From: an uncultured Fidelibacterota bacterium
GTDB taxonomy: Bacteria > Fidelibacterota > Marinisomatia > Marinisomatales > UBA1611
Reading direction: 5' to 3'
Length of the DNA stretch: 64,000 bases
NCBI GenBank assembly: GCA_913040915.1
Contig: CAJWHW010000008.1
Location: 9,808 to 73,807, forward strand
This document shows, one piece after another, positions 56,097 through 64,000 of the stretch. Each line of letters starts with the position of its first letter. The first letter of the stretch is position 1. The translations under genes were made by a program, and so were the position numbers. The notes below the pieces were generated by a model. It searched no databases, was not told where the DNA came from, and was given only the letters and a program-made list of their open reading frames with translations.

Positions 56097-57659
56097 CTAT
56101 TTGAGAAGAAGTATTTTTTGACTTTTTATATAATTGTTTGATCGCAATTGGATAAAATAAACCCCTGATGGGAGATCAGAAGCAATCCATTGAATTTCAT
56201 GCTGTCCCTGCTGCATTTTCTGATCCAAAAGTTTTTCAACCATACGTCCACCTATATCAAATATTGTTAAAGTTTGTTCATGGGAATTTGCAAGATCCAA
56301 ATCTATCTGAAACCGGATAGTAGTAGTGGAATTAAATGGGTTTGGATAATTGGGAAATAACTGGAATTTTTCCGCAAGACCAAGTGATTCCCCTTTTTGA
56401 TCTAATAACATGTGGCAATTTTCTAAATCCCAACCATTTTGAGGATAGACATAAGCGTGGTATTCTGGTGGACATGCTTCAAAATAATTATGGTGAGCAT
56501 ATATAGGAACCCAATCGGTCGTATCCATGGGTGCACTTCTATATAAATCATATCCATAGTCTGAATAATTTTCATTAAAATAATTACTTGATTTTTCAGA
56601 CCCTCCAACTAAAGGAAAAGCAGTAGAGTCCACATAAATCGCTCCTCCAAAATAACAAATGCAATCACATTCTCCCTGAACAATATTTTCATAGAATTTA
56701 TTCCCAATAACTAACGGGTATGAGTCACCCCAGATTGCTAATCCTGCCCCTTCGCCTCCACAACTACCCGCAACATTATTTCGGATGATATTCCTATCAA
56801 TAGATGGACTTGAATTTTCAATTAAGATACCTCCACCTGTTTCTTCAGCATAACCATTTTCAATAGTTAAACCTAATAAAATTGTTGATGCATCCTGCCC
56901 ACCATTAATGGTTACAACGGTACCTTCCATATTACCATTCAGAATTGTTTCAGATACGAGTGATGGGTCAAACCCTGTATATAAAAGAGATGCAATGGTT
57001 ATATTCCTATCTAAAAAATCAATACGCTCCTGATAGACCCCTGGACTCACTAAGATTATATCGCTATCATCCGATGCTTCAATGGCACTTTGGATTGAAT
57101 TATTATCCTCGGGGATTCTAATAACGCTAGAACCATTTTCAGCGCGATAATCTAAAATGAGATTAATTAAATACTCATAATCCTCAGTTTCAGTAGGATC
57201 TAATGATGTAATATTAAATTCATTTTGGAGGTTGCCTTCTCGATCCAAAATATAAGTACTTCTTTGAACTGCACCATAATTGGCCCAAACAGGATATCCA
57301 TTTTCCTGTACATCTTCTACCCATGGTAAAATATTTTCTTGAATCATCCCTGGAAGATGCTCATTGTAAGAATCTTTTCCAATACCAATAATACCCAGAT
57401 CATTAACACCCATGGATTGTAGATCTAAATAAATTGTATTCAAAAACCCGAACCGGCTTCGACAAGTTCCTCAGTACTCATGACCAAAAAATACAATAAA
57501 AATATCACCCAAGTAATCATCAGCACCTATTAATTGTCCATATGTCTCCGAATTTGGATTTAAGTCTTGTAATTCAAAATCATATTGTGCTGTAGTTATG
57601 GTAAAAAAACAAAACAGGCTCAATACATTTAGTTTTTTGAATAGACTATATTTAATCAT
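56097..57659 (-). CDS. Candidate selenoprotein, 520 aa: signal peptide + thioredoxin-like (AhpC/TSA-TlpA-type) U-x-x-C domain + right-handed beta-helix domain + T9SS-type C-terminal domain
   Basis: In-frame TGA at 57471-57473 joins the two ORF-track ORFs: FFGHEY-(TGA)-GTCRSRFGFLNTIY. Redoxin features DFELQDLN and STYILDREG; IPED..SIQSAI...PGVY.ERIDF; YPNPFN...KILLLK. Confidence 0.8.
57441..57470 (-). promoter_or_regulatory. Candidate bacterial SECIS hairpin
   Basis: After UGA: GGAACUUGUC-GAAGCC-GGUUCG-GGUUUU; the apical loop starts with G, 16 nt after the UGA. Confidence 0.5.
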
Positions 57660-57760
57660 TTATTCTCACTATCCTCATTAATACGATACCAAAGGGCTAA
57701 TGCAAGTGACCCGATAATAAATATCACCATTACGATGAATCCAATCATTTTCAGTGTCAT
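57656..57760 (-). CDS. Small single-TM protein, 34 aa (absent from ORF track)
   Basis: MTLKMIGFIVMVIFIIGSLALALWYRINEDSENK; AGGAGG SD; stop overlaps the selenoprotein start (ATGA). Confidence 0.6.
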   Translation of the reverse strand: MTLKMIGFIVMVIFIIGSLALALWYRINEDSENK

Positions 57761-57796: not shown

Positions 57797-58954
57797 CTAA
57801 ATCTGATCTGCTAATAGTAGAAGGTCAAATATATCGATTGAAGAATTGAAATCAAGGTCTCCAGATGAGTATTGATGCATGGTTGGTTCTGAATTTTGAA
57901 TAATAATTAGTAGTAATAAGATTAAATCCGGCATAGTTATAATTCCATTATTATCCAAATCACCCAATGATTCAAGAATATCTGCCAGAAAGAATGATTC
58001 TTCAATAAATGTTAAAGAATATGGAAAACGTTCACCATTCAATACTTCAGTGTAATGATCACCAGGATAAATTTCATAAGTATAATGAATATTTTTTTCT
58101 TCTAATAAATCAGAAAAGGAATTAGAATGATTGTAGAACAAATAGGAATCTTGATCTCCGCAGTCTAAGTAAAACCGTTGAGCTTTTAGATTTTCATCTG
58201 AATCTTCAGCAAGCGTTAAAGGATCATGCTGCAGCCAAAGTTGCCATACATCTTCAATTATATTGCCATCAGCATCAACTGGTAAGTTAACATTATATGG
58301 AAGATTATTTAGATCAGGACTAAAAGCTGCAGCTGCACTAAACATAAAGAGACTTACAGTTCCATTGAAGGGTTGATATCCTAAAATTCCTGTTTCCTCT
58401 AAAAGTACAGGTAATAAATCAGGGATAAGGTTCTCAAAAGCAATTGCGCCAGCATGTGAAGCTGCAATCTTAAATAATTCTGGGAATTTCACAGCTAATT
58501 TCACAGCACCATAACCACCCATAGAATGGCCCATTATGGCACGGTATGATGGGATATTAATAGTTTGATAAGTCTGATCAATATGTGTAATCAAATCCTG
58601 GACAATATAATTTTCAAATTGTCCATTATATTCTGAATTCGTATACATGCTCCCTAAATATGGTAGTACAAATCCATCTAACTTAATTAGGACGGATTCC
58701 CGAACTTCACCTGTTACCATCATGCCTTCAAATACATCTATCAAGGTACTATACCATGAATAATCTGCTCCAAATCCATGAAGAAAATATATAGATGGGT
58801 AAGTTGAATCTGGATTGGACTCATAGCTCGGTGGAAGAACGATCTCATAATACATATTATAGCCTAAAGCAGGACTATAAAAAGATGCAGTAATAGCATC
58901 TGCTTTTACTGTTGTAAAGCAAAACAGGTAAAAGTAATGTATATATTTTTTCAT
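57797..58954 (-). CDS. Secreted alpha/beta-hydrolase (esterase) with C-terminal dockerin-like domain
   Basis: FLHG, GHSMGG, DCGDQD, PGDH; GDLDNNG...GDLDFNS repeat. Confidence 0.85.
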   Translation of the reverse strand: MKKYIHYFYLFCFTTVKADAITASFYSPALGYNMYYEIVLPPSYESNPDSTYPSIYFLHGFGADYSWYSTLIDVFEGMMVTGEVRESVLIKLDGFVLPYLGSMYTNSEYNGQFENYIVQDLITHIDQTYQTINIPSYRAIMGHSMGGYGAVKLAVKFPELFKIAASHAGAIAFENLIPDLLPVLLEETGILGYQPFNGTVSLFMFSAAAAFSPDLNNLPYNVNLPVDADGNIIEDVWQLWLQHDPLTLAEDSDENLKAQRFYLDCGDQDSYLFYNHSNSFSDLLEEKNIHYTYEIYPGDHYTEVLNGERFPYSLTFIEESFFLADILESLGDLDNNGIITMPDLILLLLIIIQNSEPTMHQYSSGDLDFNSSIDIFDLLLLADQI

Positions 58955-63731: not shown

Positions 63732-64000
63732 CTATTTCAACAGTAGAATTTTTTGTGTTTTTGTTTTTTCACCATATGTAAGCCGCGCAAAATACATACC
63801 TGATGCGTATTGATTTGCATGCCATTTTGCTGAATATCGTCCCGCCAGCATTGACCCTTTAATTAATGTTTCAACTAATCTGCCTTGTAAATCATAAATA
63901 TTTAGAGACATCAAATATTGCCTATCGCTCTCGGGAAGATCAAATCGAAGTGTTGTTGTCGGGTTGAATGGATTTGGATATGCAGGATATAGGGCTATTT
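63732..64000 (-). CDS. C-terminal end of a secreted protein with T9SS-type sorting domain (5'-partial)
   Basis: Frame open to the window edge: ALYPAYPNPFNPTTTLRFDL...ASGMYF...QKILLLK. Confidence 0.85.
   Translation of the reverse strand, partial: IALYPAYPNPFNPTTTLRFDLPESDRQYLMSLNIYDLQGRLVETLIKGSMLAGRYSAKWHANQYASGMYFARLTYGEKTKTQKILLLK

What the first reader, a model, noticed from the sequence alone, without database searches (positions are those of the whole stretch)
56097..57659. Hidden secreted selenoprotein: U-x-x-C redoxin fused to a beta-helix and a T9SS sorting tail
Seen: the 62-aa and 448-aa ORFs are in the same frame, separated only by TGA (57471-57473) and 9 sense codons, reading IVFFGHEY-TGA-GGA-ACT-TGT (U-G-T-C). 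The TGA sits at the first Cys of a thioredoxin-fold W/Y-C-x-x-C site. The upstream piece supplies the signal peptide and the redoxin start (DFELQDLN); the downstream piece completes the redoxin domain, then a beta-helix-type domain and a YPNPFN...KILLLK tail. Established: U-x-x-C Trx/AhpC-TSA proteins are a common bacterial selenoprotein class, and this tail type marks T9SS cargo in FCB bacteria. Inference: a selenocysteine oxidoreductase exported to the cell surface, an architecture I do not know to be described and that standard annotation would split in two.
Basis: partly seen in the sequence, partly recalled or inferred. Interest (0 to 1): 0.92.

Follow-up and report, generated by a model that had tools for sequence, protein, structure and literature searches.

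The report
Secreted selenocysteine redoxin, wrongly split gene
The apparent stop codon inside this gene of a marine Marinimicrobia bacterium almost certainly encodes selenocysteine, so the two pieces are one secretion-tagged redox protein, from a selenoprotein family that NCBI already curates.

Summary
Window 57659..56097 (-) is one frame interrupted only by TGA at 57473..57471, reading FFGHEY-U-GTC-R.

The TGA is a selenocysteine codon, not a break:
- 87 of 88 homologous matches in 62 of 301 genomes of the phylum carry an in-frame TGA.
- All 36 distinct fetched sequences have U-x-x-C at the same place.
- The one match without TGA has Cys there.
- A hairpin with an invariant GGUU loop starts 11 nt after the UGA and shows compensatory changes.
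- The genome has selA, selB and a Sec-containing selD. tRNA-Sec is missing from this 85%-complete assembly but present in the same-genus genome.

The protein has four parts: signal peptide, ResA/DsbE-like redoxin, polysaccharide-lyase-like beta-helix and T9SS sorting domain. T9SS genes are present.

The redoxin domain passes the curated NCBIfam model NF053656, "TUGYCR motif thioredoxin fold (seleno)protein". This scan has also reported such T9SS-tagged selenoredoxins in other genomes. So the finding is correct but a new member of a known kind. Export and enzymatic function remain inferred.

The parts
56097..57659 (-). One selenoprotein gene: 520 codons plus a TAG stop, with Sec at codon 63
   Evidence: Single frame read with TGA=U. 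Full-length orthologs with exactly this in-frame TGA occur in 12 other genomes. The 19-sequence alignment A3 is conserved on both sides of the TGA.
57588..57659 (-). Signal peptide (residues 1-24). Cleavage is predicted by eye before the nearly invariant Q25
   Evidence: Sequence shows basic residues followed by a hydrophobic stretch. The model gives helix 2-22. Q25 is conserved in at least 90% of A3. No signal-peptide predictor was available.
57471..57473 (-). UGA selenocysteine codon (residue 63), the first position of U-G-T-C
   Evidence: TGA at this aligned place in 36 of 36 distinct fetched homologs. A Cys occupies this place in the G215 homolog. Contigs of three runs show no variant there.
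57444..57460 (-). SECIS-like hairpin: a 7-bp stem with GUU at the tip (the window's own copy has one G.G mismatch), or the 5-bp stem that RNAalifold predicts with a 7-nt loop holding the invariant GGUU. The stem starts 11 nt after the UGA
   Evidence: Alignment A2 (36 sequences): 95.2% of cells paired, 15 compensatory cells in 3 pairs, 0 of 500 shuffles reach this, slid controls 28-63%. RNAalifold predicts the same 5-bp core on its own. GGTT is invariant.
57150..57581 (-). Thioredoxin-fold redoxin domain (residues 27-170), ResA/DsbE/TlpA-like
   Evidence: NF053656 redoxin_TUGYCR scores 135.9 bits against cut-off 100. PF00578 scores 25.6 bits, just under its cut-off of 26. Foldseek finds DsbE, ResA and related chains at TM about 0.6 by target length.
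56400..57128 (-). Right-handed parallel beta-helix domain (residues about 178-420) with six invariant Cys (C300, C331, C333, C335, C396, C415)
   Evidence: DUF1565 weak hit. VIA-align top match is alginate lyase 6kfn (Z 18.0, rmsd 3.3, 189 aligned), followed by polysaccharide lyases, hydrolases and phage tailspikes. Invariant columns come from A3.
56655..56669 (-). C-D-C-I-C motif (residues 331-335) inside the beta-helix
   Evidence: Invariant in A3. The motif CxCxC[YFW][YF]GG is also present in beta-helix proteins that lack the redoxin.
56109..56348 (-). T9SS type A C-terminal sorting domain (residues 438-517)
   Evidence: PF18962 scores 46.9 bits against cut-off 27. TIGR04183 scores 44.1 bits against cut-off 23. 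The model shows a beta-sandwich at 445-518.

Best explanation
Window 57659..56097 (-) is one gene for a 520-residue selenoprotein of a marine Marinimicrobia bacterium. During translation, SelB with Sec-tRNA(Sec) would recognise the hairpin that starts 11 nt after the UGA (57460..57444, GGUU loop). It would then insert selenocysteine at codon 63, giving the active site U-G-T-C. This is the position of the attacking cysteine in ResA/DsbE/TlpA-type thiol:disulfide oxidoreductases.

The signal peptide takes the protein across the inner membrane. The C-terminal sorting domain then hands it to the type IX secretion system for display on, or release from, the cell surface. There the Sec-redoxin would exchange with, reduce or isomerise disulfides (or react with other oxidised sulfur or selenium species) on substrates held near the polysaccharide-lyase-like beta-helix.

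Shown here:
- one conserved reading frame
- a conserved UGA with a Cys counterpart
- a covarying hairpin
- Sec genes in the genome
- the domain folds, and T9SS genes in the genome

Inferred: actual Sec insertion, export, the redox chemistry, the substrate and the source of reducing power.

The confidence given is for the core claim (one gene, UGA read as Sec). I put export by T9SS at about 0.7 and the disulfide-oxidoreductase chemistry at about 0.5.
For: Frame and motif.

Conservation of the TGA:
- 13 of 41 related genomes (including this one) have a full-length match with one in-frame TGA.
- Across 301 genomes of the phylum, 62 have a match. Of the 88 matches, 87 contain TGA.
- In all 36 distinct sequences fetched, the TGA lies at U-x-x-C-[RQ]-x-R-F.
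- The one match without TGA reads C-G-T-C at that place.

Hairpin:
- 95.2% of cells are paired.
- 15 cells in 3 pairs show compensatory changes, several of them tied to amino-acid changes (S to N/H/A/D on one arm; G to D/E or F to V/L on the other).
- 0 of 500 shuffles reach these values, and slid controls give 28-63%. RNAalifold agrees.
- The loop codons are CGG/AGG in 36 of 36 and TTC in 32 of 36. Genome-wide, CGG+AGG make 21% of Arg codons and TTC 21% of Phe codons.

Sec machinery:
- selD scores 385.6 bits and itself carries Sec in GSGUACK.
- selA scores 492 bits and the adjacent selB 323.6 bits.
- tRNA-Sec at 58-70 bits is found in 20 of 25 relatives, including the same genus. ARAGORN called tRNA-SeC(tca) in 3 of 3 checked.

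TGA is an ordinary stop in this genome: it ends 225 of 836 long open frames.

Family and folds: NF053656 scores 135.9 bits against cut-off 100.

Export:
- The sorting domain passes two curated cut-offs.
- SprA and PorU score over their cut-offs, and about 45 other sorting-domain matches occur in the genome.
- Elsewhere in the phylum the same redoxin domain is fused directly to a sorting domain (270-278 aa) or to a dockerin (385-400 aa), all extracytoplasmic contexts.

Assembly: the TGA is unchanged in contigs of three DNA runs.
Against: - No tRNA-Sec was found in this assembly. The best RF01852 hits are tRNA-Ser. The assembly is 85% complete and shows only 30 tRNAs, with none for His, Ile or Trp.
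- The window's own hairpin has a G.G mismatch, and the local fold is no more stable than shuffles (z = 0.24).
- No Rfam family matches the region.
- The PorV-like hit is below its cut-off (131.6 bits against 250).
- PF00578 is just under its gathering score.
- The model is of middling confidence (pLDDT 73, pTM 0.65).
- No reductant is known outside the outer membrane, so the catalytic cycle is open.
- One ortholog cluster (P0003) has S-Y-D-S in place of U-G-T-C while the rest of the protein is kept. The beta-helix module also exists without any redoxin. The redox site is therefore not essential to every form.
- Sec insertion and export have not been observed.
Confidence: 0.9

Rival explanations
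1. The TGA is a true stop. The locus then encodes a 62-residue secreted peptide and a separate 448-residue protein that starts at the TTG or a later ATG.
For: This is how gene callers read it. Public protein sets hold a 438-aa piece at 99% identity, and the orthologous hits there cover 83-86% of the joined protein. TGA is a normal stop in this genome.
Against: - The nine codons between the TGA and the TTG are conserved as protein (G-T-C-R-S-R-F-G-F) in all homologs.
- The split would cut a thioredoxin fold through its active site, and NF053656 spans residues 27-170 across the TGA.
- The piece with the sorting domain would have no signal peptide.
- A Cys homolog reads straight through.
Confidence: 0.03
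2. The TGA is a nonsense mutation or an assembly error in a gene whose working form has Cys.
For: The Cys form exists in one genome of the phylum.
Against: 87 of 88 matches in 62 genomes carry TGA. Contigs of three runs from three studies agree at the site. The frame is otherwise intact, and residues downstream are conserved.
Confidence: 0.01
3. The UGA is read through as another residue (Trp, Cys or Gly), by a code change or near-cognate suppression, rather than as Sec.
For: No tRNA-Sec was found in this assembly. Incorporation has not been observed.
Against: - TGA ends 27% of long open frames (225 of 836), so the code is standard.
- selA, selB and selD are present, and SelD itself has the classic U in its active site.
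- tRNA-Sec is present in the same genus.
- A conserved, covarying hairpin sits where bacterial SECIS elements sit.
Confidence: 0.03
4. It is a selenoprotein, but it acts as a thiol(selenol) peroxidase, removing peroxides at the cell surface, rather than as a disulfide oxidoreductase.
For: The best Pfam match is AhpC/TSA. Peroxiredoxins appear among the Foldseek hits (2zct, 4kb3, 3drn). Selenols react fast with peroxides and resist over-oxidation (established chemistry, recalled).
Against: The peroxiredoxin T/S-x-x-C(U) motif is absent: the residue at -3 from U is His. The spacing is the U-x-x-C of ResA/TlpA, and the best structural matches are DsbE and ResA. ResA is also the only redoxin family seen by sequence against solved structures.
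Confidence: 0.15
5. It is a selenoprotein that works in the periplasm. The sorting domain would be only a remnant, or export would happen after the protein has done its job.
For: Known ResA/TlpA/DsbE proteins work in the periplasm, where CcdA/DsbD supplies electrons (established knowledge, recalled). No extracellular reductant is known.
Against: The sorting domain is conserved to the last residues (K515 and K520 are invariant) and passes curated cut-offs. Other forms of the family carry a sorting domain or a dockerin. The T9SS genes SprA and PorU are present.
Confidence: 0.1

Closest known systems
NCBIfam NF053656, 'TUGYCR motif thioredoxin fold (seleno)protein' (domain model)
   Same: Residues 27-170 match 143 of 146 model positions at 135.9 bits (cut-off 100), including the U-G-x-C-R core. 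The model's name already allows for Sec.
   Different: The motif here is Y-U-G-T-C-R rather than T-U-G-Y-C-R. The model covers only the domain and says nothing about the beta-helix or the T9SS tail. I found no paper holding the motif name (0 papers).
UxxC 'Prx-like' and 'Trx-like' selenoprotein families of marine metagenomes (Zhang & Gladyshev 2008, PMC2398784; passages and section 9 read)
   Same: A marine, thioredoxin-fold UxxC selenoprotein. By the paper's own criterion (pfam00578 plus UxxC) it fits 'Prx-like 1'. The paper also reports fusions of Prx-like selenoproteins with unknown Cys-bearing domains.
   Different: The subfamily cannot be fixed. 'Prx-like 2' is defined by a weak pfam04592 hit that my scans did not show. 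The text has no occurrence of 'signal peptide' or 'periplasm', and 'secreted' occurs only in names of other families. Figure S1 is a PDF that I could not read.
ResA / DsbE(CcmG) / TlpA extracytoplasmic thiol:disulfide oxidoreductases
   Same: Same fold. Foldseek gives 3gl3 DsbE and 1st9/1su9 ResA at TM 0.57-0.63 by target length. ResA is also the best redoxin by sequence profile (E 0.04-0.09). The active site has the same x-x spacing at the start of helix 1.
   Different: Sec replaces the first Cys. The protein is not membrane-anchored in the periplasm but carries a beta-helix and a T9SS sorting domain. No link to cytochrome c or copper-centre maturation is seen.
Porphyromonas gingivalis HBP35 (PMC2907840, abstract and outline read)
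   Same: A thioredoxin-motif protein with the conserved C-terminal domain of T9SS cargo. It is found on the cell surface and has thioredoxin activity in vitro that depends on its two active-site cysteines.
   Different: HBP35 uses Cys, binds hemin and has no beta-helix. No sequence comparison with it was made here.
Right-handed beta-helix polysaccharide lyases and depolymerases (for example alginate lyase 6kfn, PL6 lyases, phage tailspikes)
   Same: Residues 177-423 superpose on them at Z 13-18, rmsd 3-4 over 185-205 residues.
   Different: Identity is only 10-20%. No catalytic residues were identified. The domain carries six invariant Cys, including C-D-C-I-C. A shared fold shows no function.

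Membership tests
Bacterial selenoprotein gene (SelB/SECIS-dependent UGA decoding) | In-frame UGA conserved among homologs, with coding conservation on both sides | tested here: met
   13 of 41 related genomes (including this one) have a full-length match with one in-frame TGA. 87 of 88 matches in the phylum contain TGA. 36 of 36 distinct fetched sequences have it at U-x-x-C.
Bacterial selenoprotein gene (SelB/SECIS-dependent UGA decoding) | Homolog with Cys at the aligned position | tested here: met
   The G215 homolog reads SSVH-C-GTC-QVRFG.
Bacterial selenoprotein gene (SelB/SECIS-dependent UGA decoding) | Stem-loop just downstream of the UGA with a conserved G/U-bearing apical loop (SECIS) | tested here: met
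   The hairpin starts 11 nt after the UGA. The GGUU loop is invariant, 95.2% of cells are paired, 15 cells are compensatory and 0 of 500 shuffles reach this. The window's own copy has one G.G mismatch. Binding by SelB cannot be tested here.
Bacterial selenoprotein gene (SelB/SECIS-dependent UGA decoding) | selA, selB, selD and selC (tRNA-Sec) in the genome | tested here: inconclusive
   selD, selA and selB score over their cut-offs. selC was not found in this 85%-complete assembly. It is present in 20 of 25 relatives, including the same genus.
Bacterial selenoprotein gene (SelB/SECIS-dependent UGA decoding) | Selenium actually incorporated at the UGA | not testable with these tools
   Needs mass spectrometry or 75Se labelling.
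NF053656 redoxin_TUGYCR (seleno)protein domain | Score over the curated cut-off across the whole model | tested here: met
   135.9 bits against 100; model positions 3-145 of 146.
ResA/DsbE/TlpA-type thiol:disulfide oxidoreductase | Thioredoxin fold with C(U)-x-x-C at the start of helix 1 | tested here: met
   In the model, strand 53-59 is followed by helix 64-82 right after U63. Foldseek finds DsbE and ResA at TM about 0.6 by target length.
ResA/DsbE/TlpA-type thiol:disulfide oxidoreductase | Disulfide reductase or isomerase activity | not testable with these tools
   Needs an enzyme assay.
Peroxiredoxin (AhpC/TSA, PF00578) | Pfam gathering score, and a peroxidatic Cys/Sec in a T/S-x-x-C(U) context | tested here: not met
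   21.8 bits for the whole protein and 25.6 bits for the domain alone, against a cut-off of 26. The residue at -3 from U is His, not Thr or Ser.
'Prx-like 2' selenoprotein family of the GOS survey | Weak similarity to pfam04592, plus UxxC | tested here: inconclusive
   UxxC is met. PF04592 is not listed in scans up to E = 10, although HMMER drops most matches above about 0.1. The paper's alignments are in a PDF that I could not read.
T9SS type A cargo | C-terminal sorting domain over the curated cut-offs | tested here: met
   PF18962 scores 46.9 against 27. TIGR04183 scores 44.1 against 23.
T9SS type A cargo | N-terminal Sec signal peptide | tested here: inconclusive
   Judged by eye only: basic residues, a hydrophobic stretch and A|Q. 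No predictor was run.
T9SS type A cargo | T9SS translocon and sortase genes in the same genome | tested here: met
   SprA lies in two contig-end pieces, both over the cut-off. PorU scores 563.5 against 420. The PorV-like hit is only 131.6 against 250.
T9SS type A cargo | Secretion with removal of the sorting domain | not testable with these tools
   Needs proteomics or a T9SS mutant.
Polysaccharide lyase / carbohydrate-active beta-helix | Right-handed parallel beta-helix fold | tested here: met
   Z 18.0 to 6kfn and Z 13-17 to many lyases and tailspikes over residues 177-423.
Polysaccharide lyase / carbohydrate-active beta-helix | Catalytic residues of a named lyase or hydrolase family | not tested
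   No residue-level comparison was made. Identity is 10-20%.

The most novel reading that the evidence does not exclude
The TUGYCR redoxin is the constant working part of a Marinimicrobia-wide set of extracellular selenoenzymes. They are displayed through T9SS sorting domains or dockerins and carry interchangeable binding modules; here that module is a lyase-like beta-helix with a six-Cys cluster. Selenocysteine is nearly fixed in them (87 of 88 matches). The proposed reason is that the enzyme must work outside the outer membrane, in oxygenated seawater or on particles, with no enzymatic reductant, where a selenol stays reactive and reversibly oxidised. If so, these would be cell-surface bacterial selenoenzymes acting on disulfide-rich or sulfur-bearing organic matter. 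They would also link the selenium demand of an abundant deep-ocean lineage to the breakdown of particles.
Probability: 0.25. Interest if true: 0.65.

Novelty: new member of a known kind. Interest (0 to 1): 0.4.

Why it matters
In practice, public protein sets hold this gene family as pieces that lack the signal peptide and the active site. In one search the orthologous hits cover 83-86% of the protein, most at 425-453 aa. Functional and localisation predictions for an abundant ocean lineage are therefore systematically wrong at this locus.

Biologically, a thioredoxin-fold enzyme with selenocysteine and a T9SS tail would be a selenoenzyme working at or beyond the outer membrane. I found no paper on this: 3 papers hold the searched word pairs, and none is on the subject by title and abstract start. 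Near-fixation of Sec over Cys (87 of 88) in 62 genomes suggests a real selective reason.

Against this, the domain family is already curated by NCBI as a (seleno)protein. The class of marine UxxC selenoredoxins has been known since 2008. The same kind of gene has been reported several times by this scan. The result is therefore a solid confirmation with added detail (hairpin covariation, range of architectures) rather than a discovery.

Tried and rejected
- Rfam scan of 57300-57560 at E up to 10 gave only chance snoRNA-like rows and no SECIS family.
- Folding the single sequence around the UGA gave z = 0.24, no signal on its own. The signal came only from the alignments.
- tRNA-Sec in the window's own genome was not found by Infernal or by ARAGORN on the whole assembly.
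- The 34-aa membrane ORF whose stop overlaps the start codon looked like a coupled partner. It is present in 30 of 31 genomes of the family, including genomes with no match to the redoxin domain (G012, G016, G024) and others that lack this ortholog (G003, G015). I therefore treat it as conserved backbone synteny, not part of the system.
- The beta-helix was considered as an obligate client of the redoxin. I rejected this as a rule because the CxCxC beta-helix occurs without the redoxin and the redoxin occurs without the beta-helix.
- The NosD link was rejected as generic beta-helix likeness: TIGR04247 scores 18.5 bits against 300, and NosD ranks only 26th by structure.
- The atlas search gave only DUF1565, Beta_helix and NosD labels.
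- The exhaustive search with the beta-helix found 21,403 proteins. Its first half is a common repeat of giant surface proteins, which gives no functional clue.
- RNA runs: only one 167-nt contig (57183-57349) in one metatranscriptome. This does not show transcription.
- Three mistyped calls were corrected and repeated (22 as 24, 52 as 53, 61 as 63).
- The second structure job and the complex job were not used.
Full report
**Observation.** On the minus strand, window 57659..56097 is a single reading frame. It is broken only by TGA at 57473..57471. Nine sense codons follow before the TTG that ORF finders take as the start of the 448-aa ORF. Read with TGA = U, it gives 520 residues with the motif IVFFGHEY-U-GTC-RSRFGFLN.

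**Is the TGA a Sec codon?**

*Conservation.*
- A six-frame search of 41 related genomes found full-length matches at 48-69% identity, each with one in-frame TGA, in 12 genomes besides this one.
- A search with the first 175 residues over 301 genomes of the phylum found 88 matches in 62 genomes. Of these, 87 contain an in-frame TGA.
- I fetched loci for the best of them. In all 36 distinct sequences the TGA sits at the same place, in [FG]-[GFH]-[HDK]-[EQA]-x-U-x-x-C-[RQ]-x-R-F. I did not inspect the position in the remaining matches.
- The single match without TGA (G215) reads C-G-T-C there, which gives the classical Sec/Cys pair.
- The 19-sequence protein alignment is conserved on both sides of the site.

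*Hairpin.* A hairpin starts 11 nt after the UGA (window 57460..57444).
- RNAalifold predicts its 5-bp core on its own, in the 17- and the 36-sequence alignments.
- For the 7-bp version, 95.2% of 252 cells pair, and 15 cells in 3 pairs are compensatory. None of 500 shuffles reaches the observed pairing, compensatory-cell count or covariation score. Sliding the partner by 1-3 columns drops pairing to 28-63%.
- Several compensatory changes alter amino acids on both arms. In L061, for example, Ser to Ala (GCU) pairs with Gly to Glu (GAG).
- The loop GGUU is invariant. It is encoded by CGG/AGG (36 of 36) and TTC (32 of 36). In this 35.6% GC genome, CGG+AGG make 21% of Arg codons and TTC 21% of Phe codons.

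*Machinery.*
- The genome holds selD, which itself has U in GSGUACK.
- It also holds adjacent selA and selB, both over their curated cut-offs.
- tRNA-Sec was not found. The assembly is 85% complete and has only 30 tRNAs.
- 20 of 25 relatives have a 58-70-bit tRNA-Sec, including the same-genus genome. ARAGORN calls tRNA-SeC(tca) in the 3 that I checked.

*Genetic code and assembly.* TGA is an ordinary stop here: it ends 225 of 836 long open frames. Contigs from three DNA runs of three studies cover the site without change; one of these runs may be the source sample.

*Weak points.*
- The window's own hairpin has one G.G mismatch.
- A single-sequence fold shows nothing.
- Rfam has no match.

**What the protein is.**
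- Residues 1-24 look like a signal peptide, followed by a nearly invariant Gln.
- Residues 27-170 pass NCBIfam NF053656, 'TUGYCR motif thioredoxin fold (seleno)protein', at 135.9 bits against a cut-off of 100. They sit just under the Pfam AhpC/TSA threshold.
- The AlphaFold model (pLDDT 73, pTM 0.65) puts U63 at the start of a helix after a strand. Its best Foldseek matches are DsbE, ResA and related thiol:disulfide oxidoreductases, at TM about 0.6 by target length. ResA is also the best redoxin by sequence profile.
- Residues 177-423 form a right-handed beta-helix. It superposes best on an alginate lyase (6kfn, Z 18.0, rmsd 3.3, 189 residues), then on many polysaccharide lyases, hydrolases and phage tailspikes. 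It carries six invariant cysteines, including C-D-C-I-C.
- Residues 438-517 are a T9SS type A sorting domain by two curated models.
- The genome has SprA and PorU over their cut-offs, a PorV-like gene under its cut-off, and about 45 further sorting-domain matches.

**Modularity.** The redoxin and the beta-helix are independent modules.
- Elsewhere in the phylum the redoxin is fused straight to a sorting domain (270-278 aa), to unknown middle regions plus a sorting domain (537-573 aa), or follows a dockerin (385-400 aa).
- The CxCxC beta-helix occurs with only a signal peptide, or behind another Cys-bearing N-terminal domain.
- Its first half is a repeat found in 21,403 proteins, many of them giant.
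- One ortholog cluster (P0003) has S-Y-D-S instead of U-G-T-C.
- All contexts of the redoxin are extracytoplasmic, which supports an extracellular role but does not prove it.

**Mechanism.** The most likely course is this:
1. SelB and the hairpin insert Sec at codon 63.
2. The Sec pathway and then T9SS export the protein.
3. At the surface, the selenol attacks disulfides, or other oxidised sulfur or selenium, and forms a selenenylsulfide with C66.

Step 1 is strongly supported. Step 2 rests on domains and gene content. Step 3 is inferred from the fold and motif, and the source of electrons is unknown. A peroxidase role is the main functional rival. However, the peroxiredoxin T/S-x-x-C context is absent.

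**Comparison with what is known.**
- The domain is a member of a curated family whose name already allows for Sec.
- Marine UxxC Prx-/Trx-like selenoproteins and their fusions were catalogued in 2008 (PMC2398784). By that paper's Pfam criterion this protein fits 'Prx-like 1'.
- A Cys-based thioredoxin-motif T9SS cargo with measured activity is known: P. gingivalis HBP35 (PMC2907840, abstract).
- Searches for selenoprotein or selenocysteine together with 'type IX secretion' or T9SS found 3 papers, none on this subject by title and abstract start.
- Marinimicrobia or SAR406 together with selenoprotein or selenocysteine gave 3 papers each, none on this family by title and abstract start. In one of them (PMC5029168), passages showed SAR406 only in a genome table.
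- 'TUGYCR' occurs in no paper.
- The scan's own index lists at least seven earlier reports of T9SS-tagged or secreted selenoredoxins in other genomes. One is a close relative (e1-2106027) judged 'known'.

**Verdict.** The finding is correct and well supported. It is a new member of a known kind rather than an undescribed architecture class. Interest 0.4.

Noticed in passing
window 57656-57760 (-): A 34-aa hydrophobic ORF (MTLKMIGFIV...) whose TGA stop overlaps the selenoprotein's ATG (ATGA). It is single-copy in 30 of 31 genomes of the family, including genomes that have no match to the redoxin domain, so it looks like a real small membrane-protein gene of unknown function.
   Followed up: partly
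window 57797-58954 (-): The upstream neighbour is a 385-aa putative esterase (PF00756, 1.4e-24) with a weak dockerin-like C-terminal tail (PF00404, E 0.013). It lies next to the selenoprotein in only 3 of 18 orthologous loci.
   Followed up: partly
G000 C6:66560-67486 (-) = L001:1501-2427: The genome's SelD is itself a selenoprotein, with U in the GSGUACK active-site loop.
   Followed up: yes
whole genome G000: In a crude scan of 309 ORFs with signal-peptide-like starts, Gln was the commonest residue right after the guessed cleavage site (58 of 309, against 3.2% background). Q25 is nearly invariant in this family. This resembles the 'Q-rule', which its authors say holds in Bacteroidetes but not in the entire FCB group (PMC5837995, abstract start).
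   Followed up: partly
protein P0003 (public cluster of 42 sequences), aligned in A3 columns about 63-67: A full-length ortholog at 62% identity has S-Y-D-S where the others have U-G-T-C. Both redox residues are gone, but the rest of the protein is kept.
   Followed up: no
L032 and L034; proteins P0087 and P0243: Relatives of the CxCxC beta-helix plus sorting domain carry a different N-terminal domain with its own conserved cysteines (…HRNCGS…AFCNCYFDL…) in place of the redoxin.
   Followed up: no
window 57183-57349: One marine metatranscriptome run (X18) holds a 167-nt contig with 1 differing letter inside the gene, downstream of the UGA. This is a weak hint of expression only.
   Followed up: partly
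window about 63756-63983 (-) (G000 C8:73563-73790): Another match to a T9SS sorting domain lies at the far end of the window. It is one of about 45 in the genome.
   Followed up: no
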